Below are positions 12,701 through 15,700 of a DNA stretch of 64,000 nt, one piece after another. A program made the position numbers. The first letter of the stretch is position 1; each line of letters begins with the position of its first letter. Source of the DNA: Escherichia coli (lineage in GTDB: Bacteria; Pseudomonadota; Gammaproteobacteria; Enterobacterales; Enterobacteriaceae); assembly GCF_002854065.1 (NCBI RefSeq), contig NZ_CP024147.1; one strand, 5' to 3'.

Positions 12701-15700
12701 AGCGCAGACGCGTCACGTTCAGTCCCAGCGAACGGGCTTCGTCGTCGGAAAGCGTGAGTAAATTCATGCGCCAGCGGAGAAAAAACAGGGGCAAGGAGCC
12801 TATGAGAATGATCGGTGCAGCATAGCAGAGATCGCGTAAGGTCACGGTGGACAGTCCCCCCAGCAACCAGAAGGTAATTGACGGTAACTGGGTGTAAGGA
12901 TCGGCCAGCGTTTTAATTAGTGATATCCCCGCTCCGCACAACGTTCCTAACGCAATGCCTACCAGCACCAGGATTAAGATCGGATCGTGGCGGGTCACCC
13001 GACGCGTAATCAACCAGACGCCCGCGACCACCATCAGCCCGCCGCAAAATGCGTACAGCTGGATGTAAACAATGGATAATCCCCACAGAATTGCCGTGCA
13101 GGCACCAAGTCCGGCACCAGCGGAGACGCCTAAAATATCCGGTGAAACTAAGGGATTACGCAACATTCCCTGATAGGTGGTTCCGGCTCCTGCCAGCGCC
13201 GCGCCCAGTAACAGCGCAGCAAGAATACGCGGCACGCGGATTTGCCAGAAGACAATTTGTTCCTGCACAGGAACATTTTCTTGACGAAGAATTAGCGCCA
13301 GCAGTTGCTGCATATCGAGATTATAAGCCCCACTTACGGCGGCAAAAGTGATACTGATAGCTGCCAGCAGCAAAATACATCCGTTTACGATTCTCATTAG
13401 CTCGCCACCAATTTTTGATAGTCGGCGTCACTGAGTGAACAATGCCAGAACAGTTGGGCGTAATGCTGCATGTCACTTTTAAACTGGCGATTGATGGCGG
13501 GATCCAGCCAGGCGTGAAGTCTGCGTAATCCCAGAAGACGGTTGATTCCCGGTGGGGCATCCAGCCAGCCAAAGGGCAAGCCACTTAAAAATAAGATGCG
13601 TTGTTCCGCAACGGCTTTCACGCCATGCCAGAGAGGATCACGACGAATAAAATCTGCAGTAACGGCCTCCTGAACCAGAATAATATCCGGCTGCCAGCGC
13701 AGGAGATTTTCCATGGAAACCTGTGTCAGGCCGTGGCGATCGGCTATTTGCGCGACGTTGTGCAAACCTAATAATTCCGCCGCCTCGGTATGCAACGAAC
13801 CCTTTAAGCCCGTTTCCAGCCCTCGAGGACCGCGCGCAGCATAAAAGCGGAGGTTAGCGGCGGGTGAGGCGGCGAATGCCTGAGCTTCACCAACGAAGCG
13901 GCTGGCGAGATTGGCTTGTTCTGCGGCGCGATGCTCTTCGCCTAACGTTTTGCCAAGCGTTGTTAACTGTTCTGCTGATTGCGCCAGTTTCCCGTTAAGC
14001 AATAACCAGGGTATTTGTGTCTGTTCGCTAACCTGCCGTGCCTGGGAGATCCAGGTTTCATCCGTATTGCCGCAATCAACGACCAAATCGGGATGTAACG
14101 CCATAAGCCCTTCCAGCGAGAGTGTGCTGGCGCGCCCGGCGAGTCGTCCCAGCCTGGGTAACTGGCGAATGTGCTCTGGCAATGGAATTAATGCCTGACG
14201 GGCAAAATCAAAAGAGGAAAAACCGACCATTTTTTCTGGCGCGACAGCCAGCAATAGCAAATCGGCGGGCGCACCTGCGCTGACGATGCGTGTAATGTTT
14301 TGGGCTTCGGGAAGCGTCAGTGAGGCCCAGAATTTGACTGATTGTGCAAAAGAAGGCAGATGATGCAGGAACAACGTCGACGCAAGAATCTGTGTAAACC
14401 TCCGTCTGGTTAGTGACATAAGTTATATCCTGATAATTAAAACCGCTATATATTTACATATATATCGAAAAAAATCATGTTTGATGTCAAAATTTGTCTA
14501 AAGAGACAGAATGATTTGCTTGTTGCTTAAATAACACTTTGTTCCACAAGAAAATTGTCAGGGAGAATGGCGGAGTGGCGAAAAATATAAATAGAGGTGT
14601 AATGATTAACAAATTGATAAAATAAAATTAAAATCTTCTCTGATAAAAGAAAATAAAGGCATAGACCGTAGAATGGGGGGCATTTCGTGGCGAAAAAAGA
14701 GCAATGCCAATTTTATGCACATAATGGCATTGCTCGATATACAGCCTCGATATACAGCAAAGTTAAGGCGTAGGTTCCGCCTCTTTTTGTTTTACCGGCT
14801 GTGTTGTTGATTCACTGAGTGGACGCGTCGCCGGAACATTGTCACACGGTTGCTCTTTCGGGCAGATCAAATCCAGCATTTTCAGCGTCACGCCGTTGGT
14901 CCAGCCAAAGCCATCCTGTAATGGATATTCGCCACCGCCGCCCCCCGTTCCGGTGGTGCTGACATCATATTTTTCCACCAGCTTTTTCTCCCGGTCATAG
15001 GTGTGCTGAACATTGGTCAGGAATTGCCAGCTAATGTCCATCGCCACCTCTTTTTGCCCGTAGTTTTGTAATCCTTCTGTCGCGACCCACTGCAACGGTG
15101 CCCAGCCATTTGGCGCATCCCATTGTTGCCCACTTTTCACCGACGTGGTGTTCAGGCCGCCTGGTTGCAGCAGATGAGTTTTCGTCGCCGTCGCCATTTT
15201 GTTGGCGCGATCTTTCGCTGCCGCATTGACGTATAGCGGGAACAGGGCGGCAGCGGTTAACTGATTGCGCACTTTATGACTTTTCAGGTCGTAATCGGCA
15301 TACCAGCCTTGTTGATCGTTCCACAGGTATTTTTCGATCCCTTTTTGACGGGCATTTGCCAGCGTTTCGTACTGGTTTGCCATCGCGTTATCTCCGGCAG
15401 CCTTGCTGGCGCGGGCGAGGATTTTTTCCATTTTAAACATCAGGCTGTTCAGATCGACCGGTACGATGCTGGTGGTGCGTATGGTATTTAACTGCTGCGG
15501 ATTGTCCATCCAGCGCGAGCTGAAATCCCAGCCAGACGCAGCGGCAGAGCGCAGGTCGCGGTAAATTTCAGTGGCAGGTCGATTCGGATTGCTTTTGGCG
15601 GTGGCAATATCTTCCACCCATGACTCTGGTCGTGGCGTATCACGATCGTCCCAGTAGCGGTTGAGAAGGGTACCATCCTGAAGTTTTACAACGCGTTTTT

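What the first reader, a model, noticed from the sequence alone, without database searches (positions are those of the whole stretch)
13397..14419. Periplasmic binding protein with twin-arginine-like signal peptide
The N-terminus MSLTRRRFTQILASTLFLHHLPSFAQS carries an RRxF motif before the hydrophobic core, resembling a Tat signal. Class III binding proteins are normally Sec substrates; Tat export would imply folding or cofactor loading in the cytoplasm.
Basis: seen in the sequence. Interest (0 to 1): 0.35.

Follow-up and report, generated by a model that had tools for sequence, protein, structure and literature searches.

The report
Tat-signal binding protein, molybdenum-regulated uptake operon
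The gene encodes a periplasmic binding protein whose conserved twin-arginine signal probably sends it out through the Tat pathway, which has precedents; the more useful result is that its operon, annotated as iron uptake, looks molybdenum-regulated.

Summary
Window 13397-14419 (minus strand) encodes a 340-aa Peripla_BP_2 binding protein starting MSLTRRRFTQ... The arginine pair is 97-100% conserved in 31 non-redundant orthologues, against 35% for the rest of the signal peptide. It fits the TatP pattern, and the hydrophobic core is as weak as in known E. coli Tat signals. Tat export is likely (about 0.75) but untested. It is not new in kind: E. coli FhuD and P. aeruginosa FepB are class III binding proteins with Tat signals. 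Nothing supports cofactor loading in the cytoplasm.

The context is more informative. The gene heads a six-gene accessory operon: binding protein, permease, ATPase, SAM-methyltransferase, ModD, TonB-dependent receptor. It is present in 2148 of 5426 complete E. coli genomes. An exact ModE operator core lies 25 nt upstream of the start codon and recurs in at least five more loci: Citrobacter, Serratia, Shewanella, Klebsiella and locus L010 (organism not identified). No Fur box is present. The permease is closest to H. influenzae MolB, and the binding protein's nearest characterised relative is the molybdate-binding protein MolA. The system is therefore probably a molybdate-repressed, MolBC-A-like molybdenum or tungsten uptake system with its own outer-membrane receptor.

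The parts
13397..14419 (-). Gene for the 340-aa periplasmic substrate-binding protein (Peripla_BP_2, class III), first gene of the operon
   Evidence: ORF. PF01497, 59.5 bits. Annotated WP_001536890.1. AF2 model pLDDT 93; best folds are 4pag and MolA 3psa.
14345..14419 (-). Signal-peptide coding region, residues 1-25 (MSLTRRRFTQILASTLFLHHLPSFA), with predicted cleavage after S-F-A
   Evidence: Sequence. A25 is conserved in 27 of 31 orthologues. The cleavage site is inferred from the -3/-1 rule.
14390..14410 (-). Twin-arginine motif T4-R5-R6-R7-F8-T9-Q10 (codons ACC AGA CGG AGG TTT ACA CAG)
   Evidence: Matches the TatP pattern. R5 and R6 are 97% and 100% conserved.
14444..14467 (.). Predicted ModE operator, CGCTATATAT-TTAC-ATATATATCG, 25 nt upstream of the ATG
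   Evidence: Exact match to CGNTATATA-N6-TATATANCG. It is the only site in the 64-kb window at up to 2 mismatches; 0.01 expected. Consensus taken from PMC545781. Conserved upstream of the orthologous cassettes.
14485..14490 (-). Perfect -35-like hexamer TTGACA, 17-20 nt upstream of the AT-rich left half of the ModE box, so the operator would overlap the -10 region
   Evidence: Read from the sequence. Promoter function is inferred; the scan did not call it because of the spacing.
14428..14431 (-). Shine-Dalgarno-like AGGA, 8 nt upstream of the ATG
   Evidence: Sequence.
14699..14735 (-). Intrinsic-terminator hairpin of the upstream treA gene (11-bp perfect arms, 15-nt loop, then TTTTTT), which separates treA from the operon
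   Evidence: Inverted repeat I2; T-run seen.
12417..13397 (-). FecCD-family permease, MolB-like; its start overlaps the binding-protein stop by 1 nt (TAATG)
   Evidence: PF01032, 295 bits. Best solved relative is HI1471 MolB at 9.1e-65, against FhuB 6.8e-49 and BtuC 8.4e-40.
11662..12420 (-). ABC ATPase (252 aa as annotated)
   Evidence: PF00005; annotation. HI1470 MolC scores 1.3e-35 and FhuC 8e-34.
10840..11652 (-). Class I SAM-dependent methyltransferase of unknown substrate
   Evidence: Pfam methyltransferase domains. No close solved relative.
9989..10843 (-). ModD, a quinolinate-phosphoribosyltransferase-like protein
   Evidence: TIGR01334 modD, 504 bits against a cut-off of 178.85.
7993..9963 (-). 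TonB-dependent outer-membrane receptor (656 aa as annotated) with a Sec-type signal
   Evidence: Plug and beta-barrel Pfam domains. Below every NCBIfam cut-off. Only plug-domain matches in the PDB.

Best explanation
The gene encodes the periplasmic substrate-binding protein of a six-gene accessory uptake operon: binding protein, MolB-like permease, ATPase, SAM-methyltransferase, ModD and a TonB-dependent receptor.

Proposed export (inferred). The precursor carries a short twin-arginine signal, M-S-L-T-R-R-R-F-T-Q plus a weakly hydrophobic core. TatBC recognises it, so the protein folds in the cytoplasm as an apo-protein, is exported through Tat, and is cleaved after Ala25 (S-F-A).

Proposed function (inferred). 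In the periplasm the protein receives a ligand brought across the outer membrane by the operon's TonB-dependent receptor. It delivers the ligand to a type II (BtuCD / MolBC-like) ABC importer. ModD and the methyltransferase act on the cargo, or on its carrier, in the cytoplasm.

Proposed regulation (inferred). Molybdate-bound ModE represses the operon at an operator overlapping the promoter. The cargo is therefore most likely molybdate, tungstate or a molybdenum/tungsten complex, not iron.

Shown here: the gene, fold and family; conservation of the RR motif; the composition and conservation of the operon; the ModE-box match and its conservation; and the relationship to MolB and MolA.

My estimates: Tat as the main export route 0.75; ModE control 0.8; molybdenum or tungsten cargo 0.6.
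For: Tat signal:
- RR is 97-100% conserved against 35% for the rest of the signal peptide.
- 77 of 83 distinct N-termini at 50% identity or more carry RR followed by an uncharged stretch. Five of the other six are a mis-called start (four) or an RR signal with a shorter stretch (one); P0109 has KKR in place of RR.
- The TatP pattern matches.
- h-region hydropathy lies in the Tat range and below the Sec range.
- A crude position matrix built from 25 E. coli Tat signals scores the query 12.2 bits. Leave-one-out Tat signals score 11.0 +/- 11.5; eight non-Tat RR contexts in the window reach at most -17.4.
- RR occurs in only 5 of 244 E. coli Sec signals.
- Precedents are FhuD and P. aeruginosa FepB.
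- There is no conserved cysteine pair that would require periplasmic oxidation.

Molybdenum link:
- An exact ModE core lies at 14444-14467; 0.01 such sites are expected by chance.
- Boxes scoring 17-19 of 22 sit 12-51 nt upstream of the orthologous gene in five further loci. Three of these lie in checked, unrelated genomic contexts. Further boxes precede the receptor gene in three loci.
- The operon contains ModD, 504 bits.
- The permease is closest to MolB. MolA is the nearest characterised relative of the binding protein by sequence and by fold.
- H. influenzae molABC lies next to modD and is repressed by molybdate.
- A 68-aa TOBE/Mop gene overlaps the gene of a 40%-identical homologue.
- A MOSC-domain gene follows the cassette in Serratia and Klebsiella.
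- No Fur box scores above shuffled sequence in any of six loci.
Against: No export experiment or dedicated predictor was available.

The signal deviates from the S/T-R-R-x-F-L-K consensus at two positions (T for L, Q for K). At 25 residues it is shorter than all 25 E. coli Tat signals used for comparison.

The E. coli c-region has His-His, not a basic 'Sec-avoidance' residue, and the 8-residue hydropathy window (2.38) is intermediate between Tat and Sec.

The TIGR01409 and PF10518 models give no hit.

More than half of tested E. coli Tat signals can also use Sec with a Sec-compatible passenger.

The binding protein is only about 20% identical to MolA (phmmer E = 5e-8, TM-score 0.67), so ligand specificity cannot be transferred.

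Molybdate is small enough for porins, which leaves the TonB-dependent receptor and the methyltransferase unexplained.

ModE binding is predicted, not shown.
Confidence: 0.55

Rival explanations
1. The signal is in practice a Sec signal, or a dual Sec/Tat signal, that happens to carry paired arginines. The protein crosses unfolded through SecYEG, like BtuF, FepB and FecB.
For: Paired arginines are compatible with Sec, and over half of tested E. coli Tat signals engage Sec with a Sec-compatible reporter. The signal is short (25 aa). Its 8-residue hydropathy maximum (2.38) is closer to the Sec mean (2.73) than to the Tat mean (2.03), and there is no basic c-region residue in E. coli. The Tat-signal HMMs give no hit. 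More distant homologues, and the Pasteurellaceae MolA-like gene, use Sec-type or lipoprotein signals, so the fold itself is Sec-competent.
Against: Neutral drift in a Sec n-region would swap R for K freely. Instead RR is fixed in 61 of 62 positions across 31 orthologues while its neighbours vary. Only 5 of 244 E. coli Sec signals have RR. Hydropathy over 10- and 12-residue windows lies below the Sec range. Orthologues carry Arg in the c-region, for example LLLRHLPALA.
Confidence: 0.2
2. The operon is what its annotation says: a ferric-chelate or other iron-compound uptake system (receptor plus FecCD-type ABC importer). The ModE-like palindrome is then a fortuitous AT-rich promoter element.
For: RefSeq names the protein 'iron ABC transporter substrate-binding protein'. 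There are weak NCBIfam similarities to FecB, FepB and IsdE, and to siderophore and haem receptors. Structural neighbours include YiuA, CeuE and haem-binding proteins. A TonB-dependent receptor is typical of chelate uptake.
Against: All iron-family NCBIfam scores are far below their cut-offs: 21-28 bits against 205-325. No Fur box exceeds shuffled controls in six loci. The ModE core match is exact, unique in 64 kb, and conserved in position upstream of six cassettes (window, L002-L005, L010), three of them (L003-L005) in contexts checked to differ from the E. coli site. ModD, TOBE/Mop and MOSC genes travel with the family.
Confidence: 0.15
3. One reading: Tat is used because the protein must acquire a cofactor or co-ligand in the cytoplasm before export. 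One candidate would be a small molecule made by ModD and the methyltransferase.
For: Many E. coli Tat substrates (19 of 28) carry cofactors. Two cytoplasmic enzymes of unknown substrate are encoded in the same operon.
Against: FhuD and P. aeruginosa FepB, the closest precedents, have no predicted cofactor. Half of P. aeruginosa Tat substrates are cofactor-free. Shewanella and L010 cassettes lack ModD yet keep the RR signal. No cofactor-binding motif or Tat proofreading chaperone is present in the operon.
Confidence: 0.07

Closest known systems
E. coli / Salmonella FhuD and P. aeruginosa FepB (PA4159): class III binding proteins with twin-arginine signals
   Same: They share the Peripla_BP_2 fold and short RR-containing signals of the RRR-L/F type: FhuD ISRRRLLTAM, P. 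aeruginosa FepB MPTRRRSALP, query LTRRRFTQIL. None has a predicted cofactor. Like the query, both are missed by the TIGR01409 Tat-signal model.
   Different: They bind ferric hydroxamates or enterobactin in Fur-type iron systems. The query belongs to a ModE-box operon with ModD. Sequence similarity is remote: FhuD is not among the phmmer hits. Only the P. aeruginosa FepB signal has experimental support cited here.
H. influenzae MolBC-A (HI1470-HI1472), a low-affinity type II ABC importer for molybdate and tungstate, with adjacent modD (HI1473)
   Same: The permease's best solved relative is MolB, 9.1e-65. MolC is the best single-domain type II ATPase match. MolA is the nearest characterised relative of the binding protein by sequence (5e-8) and by fold (TM-score 0.67-0.70). 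ModD is a neighbour in both. mol transcription is repressed by molybdate, matching the predicted ModE control here.
   Different: The binding proteins are only about 20% identical. The MolA-like gene of a Pasteurellaceae contig has a Sec-type signal, MKFNRLFVAALFGIFSTSALA. The mol cluster has no TonB-dependent receptor or methyltransferase; ModA-like genes flank it instead. Ligand binding by the E. coli protein is untested.
PDB 4pag, an uncharacterised ABC solute-binding protein from Sulfurospirillum deleyianum
   Same: It is the closest solved structure: phmmer 8.6e-27, 27% identity, TM-score 0.78-0.82. It shares the conserved C-terminal-lobe motif P-F-(N/G)-W-x-D-x-P-P.
   Different: It is a structural-genomics entry with no assigned ligand or function, so it adds nothing on specificity. 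Its signal peptide is not in the deposited chain.
E. coli ModABC-ModE, the high-affinity molybdate uptake system and its repressor
   Same: The predicted operator matches the E. coli ModE consensus ATCGNTATATA-N6-TATATANCGAT. Its position next to the start of the first gene suggests repression, as at modA; the modA comparison is from general knowledge and was not tested here.
   Different: ModA is a class II binding protein and ModBC a type I importer, and neither is homologous to this system. ModABC has no dedicated outer-membrane receptor.

Membership tests
Twin-arginine (Tat) signal peptide | Two consecutive arginines at the n/h-region boundary | tested here: met
   R5-R6 (plus R7) are seen. 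They are conserved in 30 of 31 and 31 of 31 orthologues.
Twin-arginine (Tat) signal peptide | Flanking consensus S/T-R-R-x-F-L-K, or the TatP pattern RR.[FGAVML][LITMVF] | tested here: met
   T-R-R-R-F-T-Q: T, R, R and F match, while L is replaced by T and K by Q (SufI also has Q). The TatP pattern matches RRRFT. Many Citrobacter orthologues (RRMFA) fail the last pattern position.
Twin-arginine (Tat) signal peptide | Weakly hydrophobic h-region relative to Sec signals | tested here: met
   Maximum Kyte-Doolittle means over 10- and 12-residue windows are 1.48 and 1.23. For 25 Tat signals they are 1.81 and 1.68; for 14 Sec signals 2.55 and 2.36. The 8-residue window (2.38) is intermediate.
Twin-arginine (Tat) signal peptide | Basic 'Sec-avoidance' residue in the c-region (frequent, not obligatory) | tested here: inconclusive
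   E. coli has H19-H20 with no Lys or Arg. Citrobacter, Salmonella and Leclercia orthologues have R-H or R-S at the same place.
Twin-arginine (Tat) signal peptide | Score at or above the cut-off of the curated Tat-signal HMMs (TIGR01409, 16.7 bits; PF10518) | tested here: not met
   No hit at E <= 10. Controls TorA, SufI, CueO and NapA pass at 18-28 bits. The accepted Tat signals of FhuD and P. aeruginosa FepB also give no hit. Orthologues score 16.5 and 13.4 bits. The failure has low diagnostic weight.
Twin-arginine (Tat) signal peptide | Export depends on tatABC and on the RR pair | not testable with these tools
   This needs fractionation or reporter assays in tat mutants.
Class III / cluster A periplasmic binding protein (Peripla_BP_2) | PF01497 domain, and a two-lobe fold joined by a long rigid helix | tested here: met
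   PF01497 scores 59.5 bits against a cut-off of 27.5. In the AF2 model (pLDDT 93) helix 162-183 spans the lobes. The top 50 Foldseek hits are all class III binding proteins.
MolBC-A-type molybdate/tungstate importer | Permease and ATPase orthologous to MolB and MolC | tested here: met
   MolB is the best PDB relative of the permease: 9.1e-65, sixteen orders of magnitude better than FhuB. MolC is marginally better than FhuC for the ATPase. No phylogeny was built.
MolBC-A-type molybdate/tungstate importer | Binding protein orthologous to MolA, with its oxyanion-binding residues | tested here: inconclusive
   MolA is the nearest characterised relative, but only at E = 5e-8, about 20% identity and TM-score 0.67.
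MolBC-A-type molybdate/tungstate importer | Genomic association with modD and regulation by molybdate | tested here: met
   ModD is in the operon. An exact ModE operator core is present and conserved across six loci. Regulation is predicted, not measured.
MolBC-A-type molybdate/tungstate importer | Binds and transports molybdate or tungstate | not testable with these tools
   This needs calorimetry, crystallography or uptake assays.
Ferric-chelate ABC uptake system (as annotated) | Membership of a curated iron-compound binding-protein family (FecB, FepB, FhuD, IsdE and similar) | tested here: not met
   Best NCBIfam scores are 21-28 bits against cut-offs of 205-325.
Ferric-chelate ABC uptake system (as annotated) | Fur box at the promoter | tested here: not met
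   The best match is 12 of 18 positions, no better than shuffled sequence (mean 11, maximum 13). The same holds in five orthologous loci.

The most novel reading that the evidence does not exclude
The operon is a so far undescribed ModE-repressed, TonB-dependent route for acquiring molybdenum or tungsten as a complex (a 'molybdophore'-type cargo). About 40% of E. coli strains and several other Enterobacterales and Shewanella carry it under an iron annotation. The receptor takes the complex across the outer membrane. A Tat-exported MolA-like protein hands it to a MolBC-like importer. ModD and the methyltransferase process the carrier in the cytoplasm.
Probability: 0.3. Interest if true: 0.7.

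Novelty: new variant of a known kind. Interest (0 to 1): 0.45.

Why it matters
The Tat signal adds one more cofactor-free class III binding protein to the few known Tat passengers (FhuD, P. aeruginosa FepB). It also offers a natural Tat-versus-Sec comparison within one family, because RR-type, Sec-type and lipoprotein signals all occur among its homologues.

The larger point is annotation and physiology. An operon carried by about 40% of complete E. coli genomes and labelled 'iron' carries a textbook ModE operator and ModD, and resembles MolBC-A.

If it does import molybdenum or tungsten, it would give E. coli a second, receptor-assisted uptake route. I found no TonB-dependent route for molybdenum across the outer membrane in the literature I could search. 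All of this can be tested with simple reporter, binding and uptake experiments.

Tried and rejected
- Tat-signal HMMs (TIGR01409, PF10518) gave no hit on the N-terminus. Controls showed they also miss FhuD and P. aeruginosa FepB, so the result is uninformative.
- An Rfam scan of 7000-16000 found no cobalamin, Moco or other riboswitch or leader upstream of the operon.
- The generic promoter and terminator scan did not call the operon promoter or the treA terminator, because of its spacing and loop limits. I read both from the sequence instead.
- A Fur-box search found nothing above shuffled sequence. I therefore reject the iron annotation as the leading reading.
- I tried to retrieve full-length H. 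influenzae MolA with an 83-aa fragment. Only fragments came back. The N-terminus was recovered from a frameshifted Pasteurellaceae contig instead.
- The MolA structure paper and the Studholme & Pau ModE-site paper are not held. I could not compare MolA pocket residues or check for earlier predictions of this operator.
- Searches for the locus in the literature returned nothing on this operon. Terms tried were ModD/TonB/treA, guessed O157 locus tags, and ModE regulon plus TonB. The single Z1966 mention could not be tied to this gene.
- The model coordinates are not exposed to scripts, so no pocket analysis was possible.
- A lipoprotein signal is rejected: there is no Cys in the signal peptide. 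A mis-called start is rejected: the Shine-Dalgarno-like AGGA and the same Met are shared by the orthologues.
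Full report
**1. The observation**

Window 13397-14419 holds a single 340-codon ORF on the minus strand. 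The window is E. coli. The same sequence is found at 100% identity in many complete genomes and is present in 2148 of 5426. RefSeq annotates it as WP_001536890.1, 'iron ABC transporter substrate-binding protein'.

It is a Peripla_BP_2 protein (PF01497, 59.5 bits). An AlphaFold model built on 100 homologues (mean pLDDT 93.1, pTM 0.87) has the two-lobe class III fold. All top Foldseek matches are class III binding proteins. The start codon is credible: an AGGA lies 8 nt upstream, and the orthologues begin at the same Met.

**2. Is the RR motif more than chance?**

On its own, barely.
- The TatP pattern RR.[FGAVML][LITMVF], which the query matches as RRRFT, also hits 7% of Gram-negative Sec proteins (PMC1182353).
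- Paired arginines do occur in Sec signals, though in only 5 of 244 in E. coli (PMC5539426).

Comparative data settle the question.
- Homologues down to 50% identity come from Escherichia, Citrobacter, Salmonella, Leclercia, Yokenella, Cedecea, Klebsiella, Raoultella, Serratia, Yersinia, Pantoea and Shewanella. Their N-termini read [ST]-R-R-x-[FL]-x-Q almost without exception.
- In 31 non-redundant orthologues, R5 is Arg in 30 and R6 in all 31. Position 4 is T or S in 28, and position 8 is F or L in all 31.
- The remaining signal-peptide positions average 35% identity. Only 3 of the 21 arginines of the mature domain are as well conserved.
- Of 83 distinct N-termini at 50% identity or more, 77 carry RR followed by an uncharged stretch. 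Of the other six, four are mis-called starts, one has RR with a shorter stretch, and one (P0109) has KKR in place of RR.
- Between 35% and 50% identity, 29 of 46 keep an RR signal and several match the full consensus (RRQFLK, RRSFLK). Below 35%, lipoprotein and Sec-type signals dominate.

**3. Other Tat features**

- The hydrophobic core is weak. Maximum Kyte-Doolittle means over 10 and 12 residues are 1.48 and 1.23. The 25 E. coli Tat signals tabulated in PMC7549933 give 1.81 +/- 0.32 and 1.68 +/- 0.39. Fourteen Sec signals give 2.55 +/- 0.36 and 2.36 +/- 0.43.
- Twenty-one uncharged residues follow the RR pair.
- S-F-A at positions 23-25 satisfies the -3/-1 rule, and A25 is conserved in 27 of 31 orthologues.
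- A crude position matrix trained on the 25 Tat signals scores the query 12.2 bits. Leave-one-out Tat signals score 11.0 +/- 11.5. Eight non-Tat RR contexts from ORFs of the window score -17.4 at most. The training and control sets are small.
- There is no conserved cysteine pair.

Points against:
- The signal is short (25 aa) and has T and Q where the consensus has L and K.
- The E. coli c-region has His-His where many orthologues have Arg.
- The 8-residue hydropathy window is intermediate.
- The curated Tat-signal models give no hit. Controls show that TIGR01409 detects TorA, SufI, CueO and NapA but also misses FhuD and P. aeruginosa FepB, so this failure says little.
- More than half of tested E. 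coli Tat signals can use Sec when given a Sec-compatible passenger, so dual routing stays open.

I put Tat as the main route at about 0.75.

**4. How unusual is a Tat signal on a class III binding protein?**

It also holds for most distant relatives of this family. Exceptions are established, however.
- FhuD is on the accepted E. coli and Salmonella Tat-substrate lists.
- The signal of P. aeruginosa FepB (MPTRRRSALPLLALALSLFATLAAA) was validated with the amidase reporter (PMC6085387).

Tat export here would therefore imply folding in the cytoplasm, not cofactor loading. No Tat proofreading chaperone or cofactor motif is present in the operon.

**5. What the gene belongs to**

It is the first gene of a tightly packed minus-strand operon. 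Gene junctions overlap by 1-4 nt, apart from short gaps of 9 and 25 nt.
- Binding protein, 13397-14419.
- FecCD permease, 12417-13397.
- ATPase, 11662-12420.
- SAM-dependent methyltransferase, 10840-11652.
- ModD, 9989-10843 (TIGR01334, 504 bits).
- TonB-dependent receptor, 7993-9963.

The operon sits between ymgE and treA. A hairpin with 11-bp perfect arms followed by T6 (14699-14735) terminates treA, so the operon has its own promoter.

The same cassette occurs at the same site in Citrobacter. It occurs in unrelated genomic contexts in Serratia, Klebsiella and locus L006, which encodes a 46%-identical binding protein. Shewanella and locus L010 (40% identity) have it without ModD.

**6. Regulation**

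At 14444-14467 lies CGCTATATAT-TTAC-ATATATATCG. It matches exactly the core of the E. coli ModE consensus ATCGNTATATA-N6-TATATANCGAT, as quoted in PMC545781.
- It is the only site in the 64-kb window with up to two mismatches, against 0.01 expected.
- It ends 25 nt before the ATG, and a perfect TTGACA lies 17-20 nt upstream of it, so it would overlap the -10 region. That last step is inferred.
- Boxes scoring 17-19 of 22 lie 12-51 nt upstream of the orthologous gene in Citrobacter, Serratia, Shewanella, Klebsiella and L010.
- Additional boxes precede the receptor gene in Serratia, Shewanella (20 of 22) and L006.
- No Fur box exceeds shuffled controls in any of six loci.
- No riboswitch is present.

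**7. Relatives**

- The permease's best solved relative is H. influenzae HI1471 (MolB) at 9.1e-65. FhuB (6.8e-49), HmuU and BtuC are well behind.
- MolC is the best type II ATPase match.
- For the binding protein, the best solved relative is the uncharacterised 4pag (8.6e-27, TM-score 0.78). Next comes MolA (3psa: 5e-8, TM-score 0.67), ahead of YiuA, CeuE and haem or B12 binders.
- MolBC-A is a low-affinity molybdate/tungstate importer encoded next to modD, and molybdate represses its transcription.
- Two further molybdenum-linked neighbours appear in the family. A MOSC-domain gene follows the cassette in Serratia and Klebsiella. A 68-aa TOBE/Mop gene overlaps the gene of a 40%-identical, RR-signal homologue.
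- The MolA-like gene of a Pasteurellaceae contig has a Sec-type signal, MKFNRLFVAALFGIFSTSALA.
- The receptor and the methyltransferase have no close characterised relatives.

**8. Most likely mechanism**

When molybdate is scarce, ModE leaves the operator and the operon is expressed. The binding protein folds in the cytoplasm as an apo-protein, is exported through Tat and is cleaved after Ala25. It receives from the TonB-dependent receptor a molybdenum or tungsten species: molybdate, tungstate, or more plausibly a complex, given the receptor. It docks on the MolB-like permease dimer. ModD and the methyltransferase then act on the cargo or its carrier in the cytoplasm.

What is shown: gene content, homologies, motif conservation, and the operator match with its conservation. 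What is inferred: the export route, ModE binding, the cargo and the enzyme roles. Because the operon would be expressed only when cytoplasmic molybdate is low, folding in the cytoplasm would not risk pre-loading the protein; this too is an inference.

**9. Novelty and verdict**

The Tat signal itself makes this a new member of a known kind. The system is a new variant of the MolBC-A kind, with an added TonB-dependent receptor and methyltransferase, a conserved ModE operator and an RR-signal binding protein. It is currently annotated as iron uptake.

I found no description of it in the searchable literature. Two key papers are not held, so earlier predictions may exist.

Interest is 0.45. That is modest for the Tat question the finding posed, and higher for the molybdenum reading, which is directly testable.

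Noticed in passing
window 14699-14735 (minus strand), with the T-run to about 14693: A perfect 11-bp hairpin (GAGCAATGCCA / TGGCATTGCTC, 15-nt loop) followed by TTTTTT lies just downstream of the treA stop. It is a treA intrinsic terminator that the automatic scan missed because of its loop-size limit.
   Followed up: partly
window 14733-14758 (minus strand): A 13-nt unit, GCTGTATATCGAG, is repeated in tandem directly after the treA stop codon (14763-14765). The second copy runs into the left arm of the terminator. Its significance is unknown.
   Followed up: no
L003 13489-13516; L004 12750-12777; L006 13577-13604: A second ModE-like box (16, 20 and 18 of 22 positions) lies in the gap before the TonB-dependent receptor gene in Serratia, Shewanella and locus L006. 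This suggests separate molybdate control of the receptor. E. coli has no gap or box at that position.
   Followed up: partly
L003 15556-16197; L005 15466-16110: A MOSC-domain (YiiM-like) gene follows the receptor gene directly in Serratia and Klebsiella. MOSC is the C-terminal domain family of molybdenum-cofactor sulfurases.
   Followed up: no
L011 784-990 and 987-2030: In a metagenomic contig, a 68-aa TOBE/Mop (molbindin-like) gene overlaps by 4 nt the start of a 40%-identical binding-protein gene. That gene has an RR signal, MRRRDLFGLSAG.
   Followed up: partly
L007 2414-5115 and 8264-11050: The Pasteurellaceae contig carries two sets of binding protein, FecCD permease and ATPase, each followed by a ModA-like (SBP_bac_11) gene, with modD between them. 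Many genes are split by frameshifts, so it is probably a low-quality assembly. A partial ModE-like half-site (CGCTATATA) lies upstream of the molA-like gene, at about 8211-8219.
   Followed up: partly
P0009, P0087, P0094 (protein clusters): Some database entries fuse this binding protein to QRPTase, FecCD or trehalase domains. These are most likely gene-calling or assembly artefacts across the tightly packed or deleted operon. Many truncated E. coli and Shigella versions also exist, which suggests frequent pseudogenisation.
   Followed up: no
window 23268-23286: The best Fur-box-like site in the window (14 of 18, GCTATTGGTTATCATTTTC) lies far from this operon. The gene it precedes was not examined.
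   Followed up: no
window 11662-12558 (minus strand): The longest ORF for the ATPase (298 aa from GTG) overlaps the permease gene by 142 nt. RefSeq uses a downstream start (252 aa, 4-nt overlap), which fits the translational coupling seen at most of the other junctions.
   Followed up: partly
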